Shown here: positions 18,228 through 61,356 of the stretch, in pieces
Layout of the letters: each line of letters starts with the position of its first letter
Position numbering within the stretch: the stretch's first letter is position 1
Assembly (NCBI RefSeq): GCF_013122565.1
Contig: NZ_CP053258.1
From: Escherichia coli
GTDB lineage: Bacteria; Pseudomonadota; Gammaproteobacteria; Enterobacterales; Enterobacteriaceae
Reading direction: 5' to 3' (one strand)
Length of the DNA stretch: 64,000 nucleotides
Position numbers and translations under genes: made by a program
Notes under the pieces: model-generated
What the model was told of the DNA's origin: nothing
Databases searched by the model: none
What the model saw: the letters and a program-made list of their open reading frames with translations, nothing else

Positions 18228-18411
18228 TCACAACCCGAAGATGTTTCACTTCAGAGTTGCGAAAATTTGAGAGACTCACGAACAACATTCGTTGTTCAGT
18301 GTTTCAATTTTCAGCTTGATCCAGATTTTTAAAGAGCAAATATCTCAAACATCACCCGAAGATGAGTTTTGAGATATTGAGGTCGGCGACTTTCACTCAC
18401 AAACCAGCAAG

Positions 18412-18487
18412 TGGCGTCCCCTAGGGGATTCGAACCCCTGTTACCGCCGTGAAAGGGCGGTGTCCTGGGCCTCTAGACGAAGGGGAC
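18412..18487 (-). tRNA. gltV: tRNA-Glu (anticodon UUC) in the 16S-23S spacer
   Basis: Reverse complement equals GTCCCCTTCGTCTAGAGGCCCAGGACACCGCCCTTTCACGGCGGTAACAGGGGTTCGAATCCCCTAGGGGACGCCA. Confidence 0.95.
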
Positions 18488-18572
18488 GTATCAGTCTGCT
18501 TCGCAAGACGCCTTGCTTTTCACTTTCTATCAGACAATCTGTGTGAGCACTGCAAAGTACAGTTCTTTAAGG

Positions 18573-20114
<1,542 letters not shown>

Positions 20115-20606: not shown

Positions 20607-20622
20607 GCGCAAACGTTTTCGT
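20607..20622 (+). promoter_or_regulatory. PurR operator (pur box) upstream of purHD
   Basis: gcgcaaacgttttcgt matches the remembered PurR box consensus (ACGCAAACGTTTTCNT) at about 14 of 16 positions. Confidence 0.7.
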
Positions 20623-20729
20623 TACAATGCGGGCGAAAAATAAGGATGCCCCGTTAGGGGCGTTAGCTGAGTTTTTCGCGAAAAATTCAGCTAACGCTCT
20701 CTGTAATAGTCAAATCCAGGGGATTTACC

Positions 20730-22319
20730 ATGCAACAACGTCGTCCAGTCCGCCGCGCTCTGCTCAGTGTTTCTGACAAAGCCGGTATCGTCGAATTCGC
20801 CCAGGCACTTTCCACACGCGGTGTGGAGCTGCTGTCTACAGGGGGCACTGCCCGTCTGTTAGCAGAAAAAGGTCTGCCGGTAACCGAAGTTTCCGATTAC
20901 ACCGGTTTCCCGGAGATGATGGATGGACGCGTGAAGACCCTGCATCCGAAAGTACATGGTGGCATTCTGGGCCGTCGCGGCCAGGACGATGCCATTATGG
21001 AAGAACATCAGATCCAGCCTATCGATATGGTGGTTGTTAACCTGTATCCGTTCGCCCAGACCGTTGCTCGTGAAGGCTGCTCGCTGGAAGATGCGGTTGA
21101 GAACATCGATATCGGCGGCCCGACCATGGTGCGCTCCGCCGCTAAGAACCATAAAGATGTCGCAATCGTGGTGAAGAGCAGCGACTACGACGCCATTATT
21201 AAAGAGATGGATGCCAACGAAGGATCGCTGACGCTTGCAACCCGTTTCGACCTCGCCATCAAAGCCTTCGAACACACTGCCGCCTACGACAGTATGATTG
21301 CCAACTACTTCGGCAGCATGGTTCCGGCTTACCACGGTGAAAGCAAAGAAGCCGCAGGCCGCTTCCCGCGCACGCTGAACCTGAACTTCATTAAGAAGCA
21401 GGATATGCGTTACGGCGAGAACAGCCACCAGCAGGCTGCCTTCTATATAGAAGAGAATGTGAAAGAAGCCTCCGTTGCTACCGCAACCCAGGTTCAGGGT
21501 AAAGCCCTCTCTTATAACAACATCGCCGACACCGATGCGGCGCTGGAGTGCGTGAAAGAGTTCGCCGAGCCGGCATGTGTGATTGTGAAGCACGCCAACC
21601 CTTGCGGCGTGGCTATCGGCAATTCCATTCTTGACGCTTACGATCGCGCGTACAAAACCGACCCGACCTCCGCATTCGGCGGCATCATTGCCTTTAACCG
21701 CGAGCTGGATGCGGAAACCGCGCAGGCCATCATTTCTCGTCAGTTTGTTGAAGTGATCATTGCGCCATCCGCCAGCGAAGAAGCCCTGAAAATCACCGCC
21801 GCCAAACAAAACGTTCGTGTCCTGACCTGTGGTCAGTGGGGCGAGCGTGTTCCGGGTCTTGATTTCAAACGCGTAAACGGCGGTTTGCTGGTTCAGGATC
21901 GCGATCTGGGGATGGTCGGCGCAGAAGAGCTGCGCGTCGTGACCAAACGTCAGCCGAGTGAACAGGAACTGCGTGATGCGCTGTTCTGCTGGAAAGTGGC
22001 GAAGTTCGTGAAATCCAATGCTATCGTCTATGCCAAAAACAATATGACCATCGGTATTGGCGCGGGCCAGATGAGCCGCGTGTACTCCGCGAAAATCGCC
22101 GGTATTAAAGCTGCCGATGAAGGCCTGGAAGTGAAAGGTTCCTCGATGGCTTCTGACGCGTTCTTCCCGTTCCGCGACGGTATTGATGCCGCCGCCGCTG
22201 CAGGCGTGACCTGTGTAATCCAGCCTGGCGGTTCTATCCGTGATGACGAAGTGATTGCTGCCGCCGACGAGCACGGTATTGCGATGCTCTTCACCGACAT
22301 GCGCCACTTCCGCCATTAA
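20730..22319 (+). CDS. purH: Bifunctional AICAR transformylase / IMP cyclohydrolase
   Basis: 529-aa [31 protein letters not shown]... Confidence 0.95.
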
Positions 22320-22330
22320 TGGAGCAATAG

Positions 22331-23620
22331 ATGAAAGTATTAGTGATTGGTAACGGCGGGCGCGAGCACGCGCTGGCCTGGAAAGCGGCCCAGTCGCCGC
22401 TGGTTGAGACTGTTTTTGTTGCTCCGGGTAATGCAGGCACTGCGCTGGAACCCGCGCTGCAAAACGTTGCTATCGGCGTGACCGATATCCCGGCGCTGTT
22501 GGATTTCGCACAAAACGAAAAGATTGATCTGACCATCGTCGGCCCGGAAGCGCCGCTGGTGAAAGGCGTGGTCGATACCTTCCGCGCCGCCGGGCTGAAA
22601 ATCTTCGGCCCAACCGCAGGTGCGGCCCAACTGGAAGGCTCAAAAGCGTTTACCAAAGATTTCCTGGCCCGCCATAAGATCCCTACGGCGGAATACCAGA
22701 ACTTCACCGAGGTAGAACCTGCGCTGGCGTATCTGCGTGAGAAAGGCGCGCCAATCGTCATTAAAGCTGACGGTCTGGCTGCCGGGAAAGGCGTTATCGT
22801 GGCGATGACGCTGGAAGAAGCGGAAGCGGCTGTTCACGATATGCTGGCGGGCAACGCGTTTGGAGATGCGGGTCATCGCATCGTTATCGAAGAGTTCCTC
22901 GATGGCGAAGAAGCGAGCTTTATCGTGATGGTGGACGGCGAGCATGTGCTGCCGATGGCCACCAGCCAGGATCACAAACGCGTAGGCGATAAAGATACCG
23001 GACCAAACACGGGCGGGATGGGCGCTTACTCCCCCGCGCCGGTAGTAACCGATGAAGTTCATCAGCGCACCATGGAACGTATTATCTGGCCAACAGTGAA
23101 AGGCATGGCGGCGGAAGGCAACACCTACACCGGTTTTCTCTACGCGGGCCTGATGATCGACAAACAGGGCAATCCGAAGGTTATTGAATTTAACTGCCGC
23201 TTTGGCGATCCGGAAACCCAGCCGATTATGCTGCGCATGAAGTCCGATCTTGTTGAACTCTGCCTGGCGGCCTGTGAAGGCAAGCTGGACGAGAAAACGT
23301 CAGAGTGGGATGAACGCGCTTCTCTCGGCGTGGTGATGGCAGCGGGCGGGTATCCGGGTGATTATCGCACCGGTGATGTGATCCACGGCCTGCCGCTGGA
23401 AGAAGTGGCAGGCGGCAAAGTGTTCCACGCGGGCACGAAACTGGCGGATAACGAGCAGGTAGTGACCAGCGGCGGGCGCGTACTGTGCGTCACCGCGCTG
23501 GGTCATACCGTAGCAGAAGCGCAGAAACGCGCCTATGACTTAATGACCGATATCCACTGGGACGACTGCTTCTGCCGGAAAGATATCGGCTGGCGCGCTA
23601 TCGAACGCGAGCAGAACTAA
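22331..23620 (+). CDS. purD: Phosphoribosylamine-glycine ligase
   Basis: 429-aa ORF, MKVLVIGNGGREHALAWKAAQSPLVETVFVAPGNAG... Confidence 0.95.
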   Translation: MKVLVIGNGGREHALAWKAAQSPLVETVFVAPGNAGTALEPALQNVAIGVTDIPALLDFAQNEKIDLTIVGPEAPLVKGVVDTFRAAGLKIFGPTAGAAQLEGSKAFTKDFLARHKIPTAEYQNFTEVEPALAYLREKGAPIVIKADGLAAGKGVIVAMTLEEAEAAVHDMLAGNAFGDAGHRIVIEEFLDGEEASFIVMVDGEHVLPMATSQDHKRVGDKDTGPNTGGMGAYSPAPVVTDEVHQRTMERIIWPTVKGMAAEGNTYTGFLYAGLMIDKQGNPKVIEFNCRFGDPETQPIMLRMKSDLVELCLAACEGKLDEKTSEWDERASLGVVMAAGGYPGDYRTGDVIHGLPLEEVAGGKVFHAGTKLADNEQVVTSGGRVLCVTALGHTVAEAQKRAYDLMTDIHWDDCFCRKDIGWRAIEREQN

Positions 23621-24942
23621 CGCGACAGTTTTGCCAATAGCGTTTTGCGAGTGATCCCTAACTGACGGGCGGCTTCGGTTTTGTTGCCGCCCGTTTTCTC
23701 CAGCGCCGCCAGAATCACCTCTTTTTCCACTTCCACCAACGGCTGAATATCCTGACTTTGCCCCAGCGGGATCGGCGTACTGGCAATCGCCAGCGGCAGC
23801 TCGCGTTCGGAAATATATTCCCCAGTCAGCAGCACCACCGCCCGTTCCACCGCATTTTCCAGTTCACGAATATTTCCCGGCCAGTCGTAATGAATCAACA
23901 GATCCATCGCCTGGGGCGTAAAGCCTTTTACCGCCTTGCGATTACGTTCAGCAAAGCGCTGAAGAAAATGGCCAGCCAGCAGAGGAATATCTTCCCGCCG
24001 TTGCCGCAGCGACGGTACTTCAATCGCCACCACGTTCAGGCGATAGTAGAGATCCTGGCGAAAACGCCCGGCCTTTACCTCTGCGGCAAGATCGCGATGG
24101 GTCGCCGCAATCAGCCGGACATCAACCGAAATAGTCTGGTTGCTACCGACACGCTGAACTTCGCGTTCCTGAATCGCACGTAGCAGACGCACCTGCATCA
24201 TCGGCGAGATATCGCCAATTTCATCGAGAAACAGCGTGCCGCCGTCCGCCTCAACAAAGCGCCCTTCCCGGCGTTTATCGGCTCCAGTAAACGCCCCTTT
24301 TTCGTGACCGAACAATTCAGATTCCAGCAAGGATTCGTTGAGTGCCGCACAGTTGAGCGTTACCAGCGGTTTTTCGCTACGTGCGCTACTGGCGTGAATC
24401 GCCCTGGCGACCAGCTCTTTACCGGTGCCGGAATCGCCGTGGATCAGCACCGTGGCTTCCGATGGCGCGACGAGGGCGATTTCACTGAGCAGGTGTTGCA
24501 TCGCCGGGCTTTTACCGACCATACCGAACTGGCTGGCAGTCACCGCAGGTGTTTCAGCATCAATACTGTGCGTATGCGCGAGCGCCTTTTCCAGCGTCGC
24601 CTGTAGGTTATCGAAATCCAGCGGCTTGATGAGATAATCCAGCGCCCCAGTTTTCAGTGCCTCTACCGCCGTCTCGACGCTGGAGTACGCAGTCATAATC
24701 AGCACCGGAATTGCCGGGTTTAACGCTTTGATCTCTTTCAGCGTGGCGATGCCGTCCATCTCCGCCATTCGCACATCGCAAAGCACAAGATCAAAAACCT
24801 GTTCCCGCACCTGCTCCAGCGCCTGTCGCCCGCTGTTCGCCAGCGCGACGTTATAGCCCCAGCCGCGCAGTAAAGCCTGCAAAATAGTGCAGTGGCTAAT
24901 GTCATCATCCACCACCAGAATATCGATATTATCGTGCGTCAT
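23617..24942 (-). CDS. zraR: Sigma-54-dependent response regulator ZraR (HydG)
   Basis: 441-aa ORF with receiver domain, AAA+ sigma-54 activator motifs (GESGTGKE, GAFTGA) and C-terminal HTH. Confidence 0.9.
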
Positions 24943-26315
24943 CCTTGTGGGTCCTTACGCGTAATATTGACCGGAAGCCAGAGGGTGAACGTTGCGCCTT
25001 TTCCCTCCTGGCTTGCGACCTGAATTGTACCACCGTGTTGTTCAACAATATTATGCACGACCGCCAGCCCCAATCCGGTGCCTTCGGCTTTGGTGGTGAA
25101 GTACGGAGTGAAGATGGCTTCAAGCTGATCTGCCGCAATTCCCTTACCGCTGTCGGTAACGCTGATTTTCACGCCCGCGCCGCTTTCGCTGGCCGTCACG
25201 CTAATCACGCCATGCTGACCAATCGCCTGAATAGCATTGAGATAGAGATTCAACAGGACCTGAGTCAGCCTGTCCGGATCGGCCTGAATTTCCGGTAATG
25301 TGTCGTTGTCGGTAAAGCGTAACTGGATCTCCCGGCTGTTTGCATCCTGGCTTACCAGCTGTAATGAGTGGTTAATCAGCGTGTTGAGATCCACCGCCTG
25401 CAAAGCCAGATGCGTTGGCTTAACCAGTTCCAGCAACTCGCTTACCACGCGGTTTAAACGGTCGGCCTCTTTCGCCATCACCTGCGCCAGTTGATGCGCT
25501 TCTCCCCCTGCAGGCGCGCGCTCGGCAAAGTATTTCGCCAGTCCTTTAATCGAGGAAAGTGGGTTACGGATTTCGTGGGCAACGCCTGCCGCAAGATGCC
25601 CCAGCGCCACCAGCTTCTCTTTGCGCTTCATTTCATCTTGTAGAAGCTGGCGCGAGCGCAGATAGCGGCGATACCAGAAGAATGACAATACGCTTGCCAG
25701 CAAGACCGTCGCCAGGGCGAAGAGGATAATCAGGGTGTTTCTCTGCTCACGATCTTCGGCACTCACAATATTACTGGCGTCGAAAGCGATGAAAATTGCT
25801 TGTGGTGTCGCGGCATACTGCTGCATATGGCGCATCCGGTGCATTCCAGCAGCAAACATCGGTTGAAACTGGCGATAAATTTCCAGAACAGGCTCGCCGT
25901 CTGCGCTATCGATCCGCCGCCATGCTTCTTCATCTCCCGGATGTAACTGCTGCATTTCCTGCGGGGAATAAAGCTGTTTTCCCACCATGCCGGAGTTGCT
26001 ATGCATCACGATTGTTCCTTGTTCATCCGTGACCGCAAACCAACGTACTCCAGGCTGCCCGGCCATTTCTTCCAGTAAGGCCTGCTGCTGCGCATGATGC
26101 ATGCGCATCCCCATGCCGACGCGCGAGCCGGATTCAAGAGCGCGAATAAGTACACTGCCTTTTTCCAGCAGCGTTTGTCTGGCGGCGGCAGTCTCGCGCC
26201 CATAATCGCGAATCACCGTCACCGCAAACAACCCCACCAGCCCAACAATGACCACGGGGAGGATCGCGCTTAACCATTTAGCTAAGGAGTCTTTAGAACG
26301 TTGCATAAAACGCAT
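24939..26315 (-). CDS. zraS: Sensor histidine kinase ZraS (HydH)
   Basis: 458-aa ORF with two hydrophobic segments and a histidine-kinase core (HEIRNPL H-box); overlaps zraR by 4 nt. Confidence 0.9.
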   Translation of the reverse strand: MRFMQRSKDSLAKWLSAILPVVIVGLVGLFAVTVIRDYGRETAAARQTLLEKGSVLIRALESGSRVGMGMRMHHAQQQALLEEMAGQPGVRWFAVTDEQGTIVMHSNSGMVGKQLYSPQEMQQLHPGDEEAWRRIDSADGEPVLEIYRQFQPMFAAGMHRMRHMQQYAATPQAIFIAFDASNIVSAEDREQRNTLIILFALATVLLASVLSFFWYRRYLRSRQLLQDEMKRKEKLVALGHLAAGVAHEIRNPLSSIKGLAKYFAERAPAGGEAHQLAQVMAKEADRLNRVVSELLELVKPTHLALQAVDLNTLINHSLQLVSQDANSREIQLRFTDNDTLPEIQADPDRLTQVLLNLYLNAIQAIGQHGVISVTASESGAGVKISVTDSGKGIAADQLEAIFTPYFTTKAEGTGLGLAVVHNIVEQHGGTIQVASQEGKGATFTLWLPVNITRKDPQG

Positions 26316-26346
26316 CTTCTTCTTTGCCTGCTCATCCCTTTCTGAC

Positions 26347-26362
26347 AGCAGAAATCATGCCA
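26347..26362 (-). promoter_or_regulatory. Candidate sigma-54 promoter for zraSR
   Basis: Minus strand tggcat-gattt-ctgct resembles the -24/-12 consensus TGGCAC-N5-TTGCA. Confidence 0.5.
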
Positions 26363-26413
26363 TCTTTTATCAGCGCTTACCCTGCGCTGTAACACAAAGG
26401 CTTAAGTTTCAAT

Positions 26414-26459
26414 GAGTAAAAATGACTCGCTACCCGCAGCAGGCGAGTCATTTTTACTC
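26414..26459. promoter_or_regulatory. ZraR enhancer-binding inverted repeat in the zraP/zraS divergent region
   Basis: gagtaaaaatgactcgc and gcgagtcatttttactc are perfect 17-bp inverted repeats separated by 12 bp. Confidence 0.7.
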
Positions 26460-26501
26460 GCCTATCACGCCAGATTGCCCGTCATATCAGCGTTTCATCG
26501 T

Positions 26502-26517
26502 TGGCACGGAAGATGCA
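26502..26517 (+). promoter_or_regulatory. Sigma-54 promoter for zraP
   Basis: tggcacggaagatgca: -24 GG and -12 GC with correct spacing. Confidence 0.7.
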
Positions 26518-26552
26518 ATACCCGAAGTAAGACAACCACTGGAGGATTAACC

Positions 26553-26978
26553 ATGAAACGGAACACGAAAATTGCCCTGGTAATGATGGCGCTTTCAGCA
26601 ATGGCGATGGGATCGACATCTGCATTTGCTCACGGCGGACACGGTATGTGGCAGCAAAATGCCGCGCCTTTGACCAGCGAACAACAGACAGCGTGGCAGA
26701 AAATCCATAATGACTTTTACGCTCAAAGCAGCGCACTGCAACAGCAACTGGTGACGAAGCGTTATGAATACAATGCCCTGTTAGCCGCGAACCCACCGGA
26801 TAGCAGCAAAATTAACGCGGTCGCCAAAGAGATGGAGAATTTGCGTCAGTCGTTAGATGAGTTACGGGTGAAACGGGATATTGCGATGGCTGAAGCGGGT
26901 ATTCCGCGCGGAGCCGGAATGGGCATGGGCTACGGCGGCTGCGGTGGTGGCGGTCATATGGGTATGGGCCACTGGTAA
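26553..26978 (+). CDS. zraP: Zinc-resistance-associated periplasmic protein ZraP
   Basis: ORF 26412-26978; internal start MKRNTKIALVMMALSAMAMGSTSAFAHGGHG (signal peptide) gives 141 aa; Gly/His/Met-rich C-terminus. Confidence 0.9.
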   Translation: MKRNTKIALVMMALSAMAMGSTSAFAHGGHGMWQQNAAPLTSEQQTAWQKIHNDFYAQSSALQQQLVTKRYEYNALLAANPPDSSKINAVAKEMENLRQSLDELRVKRDIAMAEAGIPRGAGMGMGYGGCGGGGHMGMGHW

Positions 26979-59460: not shown

Positions 59461-59653
59461 TCACAACCCGAAGATGTTTCTTACGATTCATCATCGTGTC
59501 GCGAAAATTTGAGAGACTCACGAACAACTTTCGTTGTTCAGTGTTTCAATTTTCAGCTTGATCCAGATTTTTAAAGAGCAAATATCTCAAACATCACCCG
59601 AAGATGAGTTTTGAGATATTAAGGCAGGTGACTTTCACTCACAAACCAGCAAG

Positions 59654-59729
59654 TGGCGTCCCCTAGGGGATTCGAACCCCTGTTACCGCCGTGAAAGGGC
59701 GGTGTCCTGGGCCTCTAGACGAAGGGGAC
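59654..59729 (-). tRNA. gltT: tRNA-Glu (anticodon UUC) in the 16S-23S spacer
   Basis: Identical 76-nt tRNA-Glu sequence in reverse complement. Confidence 0.95.
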
Positions 59730-59814
59730 GTATCAGTCTGCTTCGCAAGACGCCTTGCTTTTCACTTTCTATCAGACAATCTGTGTGAGCACTGCAAAGT
59801 ACGCTTCTTTAAGG

Positions 59815-61356
<1,542 letters not shown>

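What the first reader, a model, noticed from the sequence alone, without database searches (positions are those of the whole stretch)
26316..26552. Intact zraP/zraSR divergent control region: perfect 17-bp inverted repeat flanked by two sigma-54 promoters
A perfect 17-bp inverted repeat pair (26414-26430 and 26443-26459) lies between opposed sigma-54 -24/-12 elements for zraP (26502-26517) and zraSR (26347-26362). This is the expected architecture of the zinc-responsive ZraSR system, so it is not novel. It is recorded because it is the clearest enhancer-type regulatory module in the window and confirms the locus is intact.
Basis: partly seen in the sequence, partly recalled or inferred. Interest (0 to 1): 0.2.

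Follow-up and report, generated by a model that had tools for sequence, protein, structure and literature searches.

The report
Known zraP/zraSR zinc-response enhancer, intact
This is the ordinary, already characterised switch region of E. coli's zinc/envelope-stress system ZraPSR: two binding boxes for the activator ZraR sit between two back-to-back sigma-54 promoters, all intact and unchanged from the textbook strain.

Summary
A perfect 17-nt inverted repeat (26414-26430 / 26443-26459) lies between TGGCACGGAAGATGCA (26502-26517, +, zraP) and TGGCATGATTTCTGCT (26362-26347, -, zraSR). It is the longest perfect inverted repeat in the 64-kb window, and shuffled sequence never gave more than 13 nt. 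Both promoter strings match, letter for letter, the sigma-54 ChIP-seq motifs reported for E. coli K-12 zraP and zraS. Published gSELEX and ChIP-exo work places ZraR on this spacer. In 13 sequences from Escherichia, Citrobacter, Salmonella, Kosakonia and [Enterobacter] lignolyticus, the two promoters and two 15-bp boxes (GRGTAAAAATGACYC) are 95-99% conserved. The rest of the spacer is 56-68% conserved. Box spacing is always 31 bp, three helical turns. zraR, zraS and zraP are full length with all their motifs.

Refinements:
- The conserved unit is the 15-bp box. The perfect 17-nt arm is seen only in some Escherichia sequences.
- Escherichia has lost about 11 bp, one helical turn, between box R and the zraP promoter.
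- The neighbouring zraS carries a sensor-domain cassette only 58.6% identical to K-12's. The window's type is the majority type in E. coli (4183 of 5419 genomes).

The parts
23617..24942 (-). zraR: sigma-54-dependent response regulator (bacterial enhancer-binding protein), 441 aa
   Evidence: ORF. Pfam domains Response_reg, Sigma54_activat, AAA_lid_14 and HTH_8. 439/441 residues identical to the K-12-like ZraR. D56, [14 protein letters not shown] and LFLDE are present. Residues 141-441 match PDB 1OJL (ZraR) at E = 5.6e-178. The exact protein is E. coli WP_171460001.1.
24939..26315 (-). zraS: sensor histidine kinase, 458 aa, carrying the non-K-12 periplasmic cassette (about 25735-26215)
   Evidence: ORF. 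HisKA and HATPase_c pass the Pfam cut-offs; sCache_3_2 scores 26.3 bits, just below its 28.4-bit cut-off. The cytoplasmic part is 98.7% identical to the K-12-like protein, the periplasmic residues 41-195 only 58.6%. The divergent DNA block has sharp boundaries. Its type is present in 4183 of 5419 E. coli genomes.
26347..26362 (-). zraSR sigma-54 promoter, -24/-12 element TGGCATGATTTCTGCT. Predicted +1 is near 26336, giving a leader of about 21 nt.
   Evidence: Found. Identical to ChIP-seq motif OS39 (A)TGGCATGATTTCTGCT of K-12, 21 nt from zraS. 14 of 16 columns are invariant across 13 sequences. The +1 is inferred from the -12 GC position.
26379..26398 (.). Partly conserved block ACCCTG-N7-ACACAAA between the zraSR promoter and box L; function unknown
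   Evidence: Alignments. It matches no IHF consensus and no sigma-70 consensus. There is no counterpart on the zraP side.
26414..26428 (+). ZraR box L (GAGTAAAAATGACTC). The 17-nt repeat arm runs on to 26430. The centre at 26421 lies about -85 from the zraSR +1 and about -106 from the zraP +1.
   Evidence: 12 of 15 columns are invariant across 13 sequences. Consensus GRGTAAAAATGACYC.
26429..26444 (.). 16-bp spacer between the boxes. Its sequence is free but its length is fixed, giving 31 bp centre to centre.
   Evidence: Mean identity 0.62 with 1 of 16 columns invariant. The length is 16 bp in all 19 sequences examined.
26445..26459 (-). ZraR box R (GAGTCATTTTTACTC on the + strand, the same box inverted). 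The 17-nt arm starts at 26443. The centre at 26452 lies about -75 from the zraP +1 and about -116 from the zraSR +1.
   Evidence: 14 of 15 columns are invariant.
26502..26517 (+). zraP sigma-54 promoter, -24/-12 element TGGCACGGAAGATGCA. Predicted +1 is near 26527.
   Evidence: Found. Identical to ChIP-seq motif OS38 (T)TGGCACGGAAGATGCA of K-12 and to the Salmonella LT2 zraP site TGGCACGGAAGATGCAAG. 13 of 16 columns are invariant.
26541..26545 (+). zraP ribosome-binding site GGAGG, 7 nt before the ATG
   Evidence: Sequence. A GGAG/GAGG core is kept in the alignment.
26553..26978 (+). zraP: periplasmic zinc-binding chaperone and repressor of ZraS signalling, 141 aa
   Evidence: Pfam Metal_resist, E = 4.8e-23. 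141/141 residues identical to the K-12-like ZraP.

Best explanation
The region is the shared enhancer and double promoter of the ZraPSR envelope-stress/zinc system of E. coli.

Proposed mechanism:
1. Two ZraR dimers occupy two 15-bp boxes (GAGTAAAAATGACTC and its inverted copy). The box centres are 31 bp apart, which is three helical turns, so both dimers face the same side of the DNA.
2. ZraS senses periplasmic Zn2+/Pb2+ or envelope stress and phosphorylates ZraR on D56.
3. The bound dimers then nucleate an AAA+ hexamer.
4. The hexamer loops over about 75-115 bp of DNA to reach sigma-54 RNA polymerase. The polymerase waits as a closed complex at the zraP promoter on the right (+1 near 26527) or the zraSR promoter on the left (+1 near 26336).
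5. ATP hydrolysis and the GAFTGA loop convert the closed complex to an open one.
6. One enhancer therefore drives both the effector/feedback protein ZraP and positive autoregulation of zraSR.

Status of each step:
- Shown here: the sequence elements, their identity to the K-12 elements, their conservation and geometry, and the integrity of the three genes.
- Shown by others in K-12 or Salmonella: sigma-54 occupancy, ZraR occupancy of the spacer, and zinc induction.
- Inferred: the assignment of one dimer per box, the +1 positions, the same-face logic, and looping without IHF.
For: Sequence elements and chance:
- The inverted repeat and both -24/-12 elements are at the stated coordinates.
- The repeat is far beyond chance.

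Match to experimentally bound sites:
- The promoter strings are identical to the sigma-54 ChIP-seq motifs for zraP and zraS in K-12 (PMC4591121).
- They are near-identical to the experimentally bound Salmonella sites (PMC3844500).
- ZraR binds this spacer: 81 of 86 gSELEX clones (PMC8249747), and ChIP-exo peaks lie upstream of zraP and zraSR with zraR-dependent expression (PMC7657598).

Comparison with K-12 and the E. coli population:
- The spacer differs from the K-12-like sequence at only 4 positions (26461, 26462, 26468, 26477), all outside the functional elements.
- The region is present in 5419 of 5426 complete E. coli genomes.
- The 58-nt enhancer core is at least 99% identical in 4356 of them.

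Phylogenetic footprint in 13 sequences:
- Promoters 0.98-0.99 and boxes 0.95-0.98 identity, against 0.56-0.68 for the rest of the spacer.
- Box-to-box distance is invariant at 31 bp. Box L to the zraSR promoter is 72-73 bp. Box R to the zraP promoter is 73 bp, or 62 bp in Escherichia, a change of one helical turn.

Proteins:
- ZraR has all the enhancer-binding-protein motifs.
- It matches the hexameric ZraR crystal entry 1OJL.
Against: - No base-resolution footprint could be read here. Leonhartsberger et al. 2001 and Rome et al. 2018 are not in the held library, so assigning ZraR to these exact boxes rests on conservation plus my recollection of that paper's abstract.
- The sigma-54 consensus count in the window is not above chance.
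- rpoN lies outside the window, so its presence is not shown.
- No sigma-70-like promoter was found that could supply the basal ZraSR needed to start positive autoregulation.
- No IHF-like site was found, so how the short loop is bent is unknown.
- A partly conserved block at 26379-26398 is not explained by this model.
Confidence: 0.93

Rival explanations
1. The inverted repeat acts as a nucleic-acid hairpin: a terminator, an attenuator, another RNA structure or a cruciform, rather than a protein-binding enhancer.
For: The 17-bp stem with a 10-12-nt loop folds very stably, at -18.1 kcal/mol with z = -7.4.
Against: - It lies upstream of both predicted start sites, so neither promoter transcribes it.
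- No T-run or terminator-like site exists on either strand.
- Across species the two arms change independently, without compensation. They match at 13-14 of 17 positions in several Citrobacter sequences and 15-16 of 17 in Salmonella, Kosakonia and [Enterobacter] lignolyticus. Each box nonetheless stays close to GRGTAAAAATGACYC. That is the pattern of two protein sites, not a selected stem.
Confidence: 0.02
2. The boxes are the operator of a different regulator, for example a repressor or another envelope-stress response regulator, and ZraR binds elsewhere in the spacer.
For: The ZraR binding data I could read (gSELEX, ChIP-exo) resolve the spacer but not the base pairs. A second partly conserved block exists at 26379-26398.
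Against: - The boxes are the only strongly conserved non-promoter elements and co-occur with zraR in every sequence examined.
- Their dyad form, pairing at three helical turns and position about 75-115 bp upstream match enhancer sites of NtrC-family activators (established knowledge of glnAp2).
- My recollection of Leonhartsberger 2001 is that the HydG footprint covers two inverted repeats in this spacer.
Confidence: 0.03
3. The whole module is a chance or decayed arrangement with no current function in this strain.
For: The sigma-54 pattern alone is not enriched in the window.
Against: - The repeat is beyond every shuffle.
- All elements are invariant relative to functional K-12.
- The genes are intact.
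- The region is conserved in 5419 of 5426 E. coli genomes and across five genera.
Confidence: 0.01

Closest known systems
E. coli K-12 zraP-zraSR (hydHG) intergenic control region (Leonhartsberger et al. 2001; sigma-54 ChIP-seq sites OS38/OS39 of Bonocora et al. 2015)
   Same: - Same genes and same synteny.
- Identical 46-bp enhancer.
- Identical -24/-12 strings and identical spacings.
- Only 4 substitutions in 237 bp, all in the unconserved stretch 26460-26501.
   Different: Nothing functional differs in the control region. The adjacent zraS carries a different periplasmic sensor cassette, 458 against 465 aa and 58.6% identity over residues 41-195.
Salmonella Typhimurium zraP / hydHG divergent sigma-54 promoters (Samuels et al. 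2013, PMC3844500; Bono et al. 2016 review, PMC4987338)
   Same: - Same architecture.
- The zraP -24/-12 element is identical (TGGCACGGAAGATGCA). The zraSR element differs by one base in the spacer.
- The boxes are GGGTAAAAATGACTC and GAGTCATTTTTACTC, 31 bp apart.
   Different: In Salmonella, box R lies 73 bp from the zraP -12 element. In the window it is 62 bp, because Escherichia lacks about 11 bp there. The review lists the ZraR enhancer sequence as 'NK', not known.
NtrC enhancer of glnAp2
   Same: Two dyad-symmetric dimer sites about three helical turns apart lie about 100 bp upstream of a sigma-54 promoter. They nucleate an AAA+ oligomer after phosphorylation of the receiver domain. This comparison rests on established knowledge and was not tested here.
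   Different: The box sequence differs (GAGT-N7-ACTC against TGCACC-N5-GGTGCA). The ZraR enhancer serves two divergent sigma-54 promoters. The sensor and signal are different.
FhlA-dependent hyc/hyp divergent sigma-54 region
   Same: Divergent sigma-54 promoters are controlled by one enhancer-binding protein from upstream activating sequences in the shared spacer. This rests on established knowledge; the FhlA targets are listed.
   Different: FhlA is not a two-component response regulator and its sites differ (CATTTCGTACGAAATG). I recall that region relying on IHF, whereas no IHF-like site was found here.

Membership tests
zraP-zraSR ZraR/sigma-54 control region | Lies in the spacer between divergently transcribed zraP and zraSR orthologues | tested here: met
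   ORFs, Pfam domains and RefSeq annotation of syntenic loci. ZraP is 100% and ZraR 99.5% identical to the K-12-like proteins.
zraP-zraSR ZraR/sigma-54 control region | Two opposed sigma-54 -24/-12 elements (GG-N10-GC), each facing its gene | tested here: met
   Elements at 26502-26517 (+) and 26362-26347 (-). They are identical to the experimentally bound K-12 motifs and 98-99% conserved across 13 sequences.
zraP-zraSR ZraR/sigma-54 control region | ZraR-binding enhancer: two inverted-repeat boxes between the promoters | tested here: met
   The boxes are present, identical to K-12 and conserved with fixed 31-bp spacing. Published ZraR binding is resolved only to the spacer in the papers I could read. 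The base-level footprint paper is not held.
zraP-zraSR ZraR/sigma-54 control region | Cognate activator with a receiver Asp, an AAA+ sigma-54 interaction domain containing GAFTGA, and a Fis-type HTH | tested here: met
   Pfam domains. D56, [14 protein letters not shown] and LFLDE are present. Match to 1OJL.
zraP-zraSR ZraR/sigma-54 control region | rpoN (sigma-54) present in the same genome | not testable with these tools
   rpoN lies outside the 64-kb window. It is expected, because the window is E. coli.
zraP-zraSR ZraR/sigma-54 control region | Zn2+/Pb2+-inducible transcription that depends on zraR and rpoN | not testable with these tools
   This needs reporter assays. It has been shown for K-12 and Salmonella in the literature.
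IHF-assisted sigma-54 promoter | IHF consensus WATCAANNNNTTR between the enhancer and the promoter | tested here: not met
   No match with up to 1 mismatch anywhere in 26316-26552 on either strand.
Intrinsic terminator / RNA hairpin | GC-rich stem followed by a T-run, with compensatory changes between the arms | tested here: not met
   No terminator-like site. Arm differences are uncompensated across species.

The most novel reading that the evidence does not exclude
The control region itself holds nothing new. The most novel reading concerns what it is wired to and how its geometry has drifted.

E. coli carries two ancient, sharply bounded ZraS periplasmic sensor cassettes, only 58.6% identical in protein, behind one invariant enhancer. 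The window has the majority type (77% of complete genomes), whereas K-12, the usual laboratory model for ZraPSR work, has the minority type. The two forms may therefore sense different signals or respond differently to ZraP feedback.

Two further features might tune the balance between the two promoters. One is the one-helical-turn deletion between box R and the zraP promoter, specific to Escherichia. The other is the unexplained conserved block at 26379-26398, which might bind an unknown factor.
Probability: 0.2. Interest if true: 0.45.

Novelty: already known. Interest (0 to 1): 0.1.

Why it matters
The finding matters little. It confirms that a well-studied regulatory module is present and undamaged in this strain, which is useful only as an annotation anchor.

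Three small gains come from the checking:
- A base-level definition of the conserved ZraR box (GRGTAAAAATGACYC, two copies inverted, 31 bp apart). A 2016 review still listed this enhancer sequence as unknown for Salmonella.
- Evidence that helical phase, not absolute distance, is conserved between the enhancer and the zraP promoter.
- A lead that most E. coli strains carry a ZraS sensor domain very different from the one in the usual laboratory model, K-12. This could matter for work on zinc sensing, envelope stress and zraP-based biosensors.

Tried and rejected
- **Primary papers.** Leonhartsberger 2001 and Rome 2018 are not in the held library. Two biosensor reviews give only spacer-level statements.
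- **Sigma-54 consensus as a statistic.** The count is not enriched, 39 found against 39.3 expected, so I did not use it as evidence.
- **Sigma-70 promoter and terminator scan of 26250-26620.** Nothing found.
- **IHF consensus scan of the spacer.** Nothing within 1 mismatch.
- **Direct repeat TATCAGCG(C/T)TT (26368 and 26485).** It is not conserved outside Escherichia, so I dropped it as a candidate site.
- **The block at 26379-26398.** It has no CpxR-like tandem GTAAA arrangement and no ZraR-like box, so it stays unexplained.
- **Genome-contig scan with ZraP alone.** It reached only Escherichia and Citrobacter. More distant loci came from exact-protein look-ups.
- **Literature search for a described zraS allele dimorphism.** The only zraS mention read (PMC8715431) is 'zraS_2', a gene cluster grouped with atoA/atoD, and says nothing about zraS sensor alleles.
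- **Protein search with the window-type periplasmic domain.** It returned mostly fragments. No named donor outside E. coli exceeded about 75% identity; the best named hits were Salmonella bongori and Klebsiella fragments at about 73%. Unnamed fragments at 84-93% were not traced to an organism.
- **Solved structures.** No solved structure covers the ZraS periplasmic domain.

Full report
**Observation**

The interval 26316-26552 is exactly the spacer between the zraS start codon (ends at 26315, minus strand) and the zraP ATG at 26553.

- The repeat finder reports arms at 26414-26430 (GAGTAAAAATGACTCGC) and 26443-26459 (GCGAGTCATTTTTACTC). They are 17 nt, 100% complementary and 12 nt apart.
- The arm has no other copy in the window even with 3 mismatches allowed.
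- My own scan shows it is the longest perfect inverted repeat (loop 3-60 nt) in all 64 kb. The runner-up is 12 nt, and 60 shuffles peaked at 9-13 nt.
- As single-stranded DNA it folds at -18.1 kcal/mol, z = -7.4.
- The two sigma-54 elements are TGGCACGGAAGATGCA at 26502-26517 (+) and TGGCATGATTTCTGCT at 26362-26347 (-). Both have the canonical GG-N10-GC.
- The consensus pattern by itself is not enriched in the window (39 matches, 39.3 expected). The case for the promoters rests on other evidence.

**Identity of the locus**

- The flanking ORFs are ZraR (441 aa; Response_reg, Sigma54_activat, AAA_lid_14, HTH_8), ZraS (458 aa; HisKA and HATPase_c, plus a sub-threshold sCache_3_2 match) and ZraP (141 aa; Metal_resist).
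- The 237-bp spacer is found in 5419 of 5426 complete E. coli genomes, always between genes annotated zraS and zraP. The synteny is hemE-nfi-yjaG-hupA-yjaH-zraP/zraSR-purD.
- The exact ZraR and ZraS proteins are on record as E. coli WP_171460001.1 and WP_171460002.1, from a 4.82-Mb contig.
- Against a K-12-like genome the spacer differs at four positions (26461, 26462, 26468, 26477). None touches a box or a promoter.

**Experimental anchors from the literature**

- Bonocora et al. 2015 list sigma-54 ChIP-seq sites OS38 TTGGCACGGAAGATGCA (zraP) and OS39 ATGGCATGATTTCTGCT (zraS). These are letter for letter the window's elements (PMC4591121).
- Samuels et al. 2013 confirmed sigma-54 holoenzyme binding at the Salmonella counterparts TGGCACGGAAGATGCAAG and TGGCATGATCTCTGCTTA (PMC3844500).
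- Shimada et al. 2021 found the zraP/zraSR spacer to be the single high-affinity ZraR target by gSELEX, in 81 of 86 clones (PMC8249747).
- Choudhary et al. 2020 saw ChIP-exo peaks upstream of zraP and zraSR, and zraR-dependent expression under 1 mM ZnCl2 (PMC7657598).
- The paper that footprinted HydG/ZraR (Leonhartsberger et al. 2001) is not held. From memory, its abstract places the site on two inverted repeats in this spacer. I treat that as a lead, not a result.

**Phylogenetic footprint**

I collected the region from further E. coli strains, E. whittamii, E. albertii, an unnamed Escherichia and five Citrobacter. Exact-protein look-ups added Salmonella, [Enterobacter] lignolyticus, Kosakonia, C. 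rodentium and C. freundii. Mean identity to the window in a 13-sequence alignment:

| Segment | Mean identity |
|---|---|
| zraSR promoter | 0.99 |
| Box L | 0.95 |
| Box R | 0.98 |
| zraP promoter | 0.98 |
| Inter-box spacer | 0.62 |
| Stretches between the boxes and the promoters | 0.56-0.63 |
| Two leaders | 0.60-0.68 |

- The conserved unit is 15 bp, GRGTAAAAATGACYC, present twice in inverted orientation.
- The extra GC that makes the arms 17 nt and perfectly complementary is kept only in some Escherichia sequences.
- Outside Escherichia the arms differ from each other without compensation, matching at 13-16 of 17 positions. This argues for two protein sites and against a selected hairpin.

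**Geometry**

- Box centres are 31 bp apart in all 19 sequences. That is 2.95 turns of B-DNA, so both boxes face the same side.
- The box L centre is 72-73 bp from the -12 GC of the zraSR promoter everywhere.
- The box R centre is 73 bp from the -12 GC of the zraP promoter in Citrobacter, Salmonella, Kosakonia and [E.] lignolyticus. In Escherichia it is 62 bp, and 61 bp in E. albertii. This is a loss of 11 bp, or one helical turn.
- The ancestral layout is thus almost two-fold symmetric, and Escherichia shortened one side while keeping the phase.
- With +1 inferred 12 nt downstream of the -12 C, the boxes sit at about -75 and -106 for zraP and about -85 and -116 for zraSR.
- No IHF-like site, sigma-70-like promoter or terminator was found in the spacer.

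**Mechanism**

1. ZraS is activated by periplasmic Zn2+/Pb2+ or envelope stress, and phosphorylates ZraR at D56.
2. Dimers bound at the two same-face boxes assemble the AAA+ hexamer. The ZraR entry 1OJL matches residues 141-441 at E = 5.6e-178.
3. The hexamer reaches sigma-54 holoenzyme closed complexes at either promoter by looping.
4. It remodels them through GAFTGA and ATP hydrolysis.
5. ZraP then feeds back negatively on ZraS (Appia-Ayme et al. 2012, as cited).

ZraR has D56, [14 protein letters not shown] and LFLDE. ZraS has HEIRNP, DSGKG and GTGLG. The assignment of one dimer per box, the +1 positions and IHF-independence are inferences.

**Rivals**

- A hairpin, terminator or cruciform role is disfavoured. 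The repeat lies upstream of both start sites, has no T-run, and its arms drift without compensation.
- Binding by a different regulator cannot be strictly excluded at base resolution. However, the boxes are the only conserved non-promoter elements and have typical NtrC-family enhancer geometry.
- Chance or decay is excluded.

**Comparison and novelty**

This is the known zraP-zraSR control region, a member by every testable criterion. The one criterion resting partly on outside evidence is ZraR occupancy of the boxes, which the papers I could read resolve only to the spacer. rpoN presence and metal inducibility cannot be tested with these tools.

**Side observations**

- **ZraS sensor cassette.** The window's ZraS is 458 aa against 465 aa in K-12-like strains.
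  - The cytoplasmic half is 98.7% identical, but periplasmic residues 41-195 are only 58.6% identical.
  - At DNA level a block at about 25735-26215 is 40-80% identical, with 98-100% identical flanks on both sides.
  - Among 5419 genomes, 4183 have the window type (at least 95% identity) and 1236, including K-12 MG1655, have the other type (60-80%, partial alignment). There are no intermediates.
  - The K-12 type groups with E. whittamii (92.6%) and E. albertii (83.3%). The window type is 57-67% identical to every other ZraS compared at full length.
  - No named hit outside E. coli exceeds about 75% identity.
  - I found no paper describing this. No solved structure covers the domain.
- **Conserved block.** ACCCTG-N7-ACACAAA at 26379-26398 is partly conserved, on the zraSR side only, and unexplained.
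- **Annotation artefacts.** An in-frame, stop-free extension from ATG 26412 gives a mechanical 188-aa 'ZraP' ORF that runs through the enhancer. Database entries of 174-186 aa, and a 42-aa 'hypothetical protein' annotated over the enhancer in some RefSeq genomes, are likely artefacts of the same kind.

Noticed in passing
window 25735-26215 (zraS periplasmic domain, minus strand): A sharply bounded sensor-domain cassette. Its protein is only 58.6% identical to the K-12 type, while the flanks are 98-100% identical. The window type is in 4183 of 5419 complete E. coli genomes and the K-12 type in 1236, with no intermediates. The K-12 type groups with E. whittamii and E. albertii. No named donor outside E. 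coli above about 75% identity was found, and no paper describing this was found.
   Followed up: partly
window 26460-26501: Escherichia lacks about 11 bp, one helical turn, between ZraR box R and the zraP sigma-54 promoter. The distance is 62 bp against 73 bp in Citrobacter, Salmonella, Kosakonia and [Enterobacter] lignolyticus. The zraSR side is fixed at 72-73 bp in all.
   Followed up: partly
window 26379-26398: A partly conserved block, ACCCTG-N7-ACACAAA, lies between the zraSR promoter and box L, at about -43 to -62 from the predicted zraSR start. There is no counterpart on the zraP side and no IHF or sigma-70 match.
   Followed up: partly
window 26412-26552: An in-frame, stop-free upstream extension of zraP starts at ATG 26412, inside box L, and gives a mechanical 188-aa ORF. 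Databases hold 174-186-aa 'ZraP' entries, and some RefSeq genomes annotate a 42-aa hypothetical protein across the enhancer. Because these lie upstream of the predicted start site, they are probably annotation artefacts.
   Followed up: partly
window 26250-26620: No sigma-70-type promoter was detected in the spacer, although positive autoregulation of zraSR from a ZraR-dependent promoter needs some basal ZraSR. The source of basal expression is unclear.
   Followed up: no
window 20607-20697 (upstream of purH, ATG at 20731): GCGCAAACGTTTTCGT at 20607-20622 resembles the PurR operator as I recall it. It is followed by a 38-nt near-perfect palindrome at 20660-20697 (24-nt arms, 96% complementary), 33 nt before the purH start. 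This could be a leader hairpin.
   Followed up: no
window about 18406-19610 and 59648-60852: Identical pattern matches recur 41,242 bp apart (18406/59648 and 19595/60837). This is consistent with two rRNA operons bracketing the region. The 16S rRNA gene next to purH in the syntenic K-12-like genome supports one of them.
   Followed up: no
E. coli genome collection (not the window): Two of the 5421 matches to the zraP-zraS spacer are on records labelled plasmids, and 7 of 5426 genomes lack the region.
   Followed up: no
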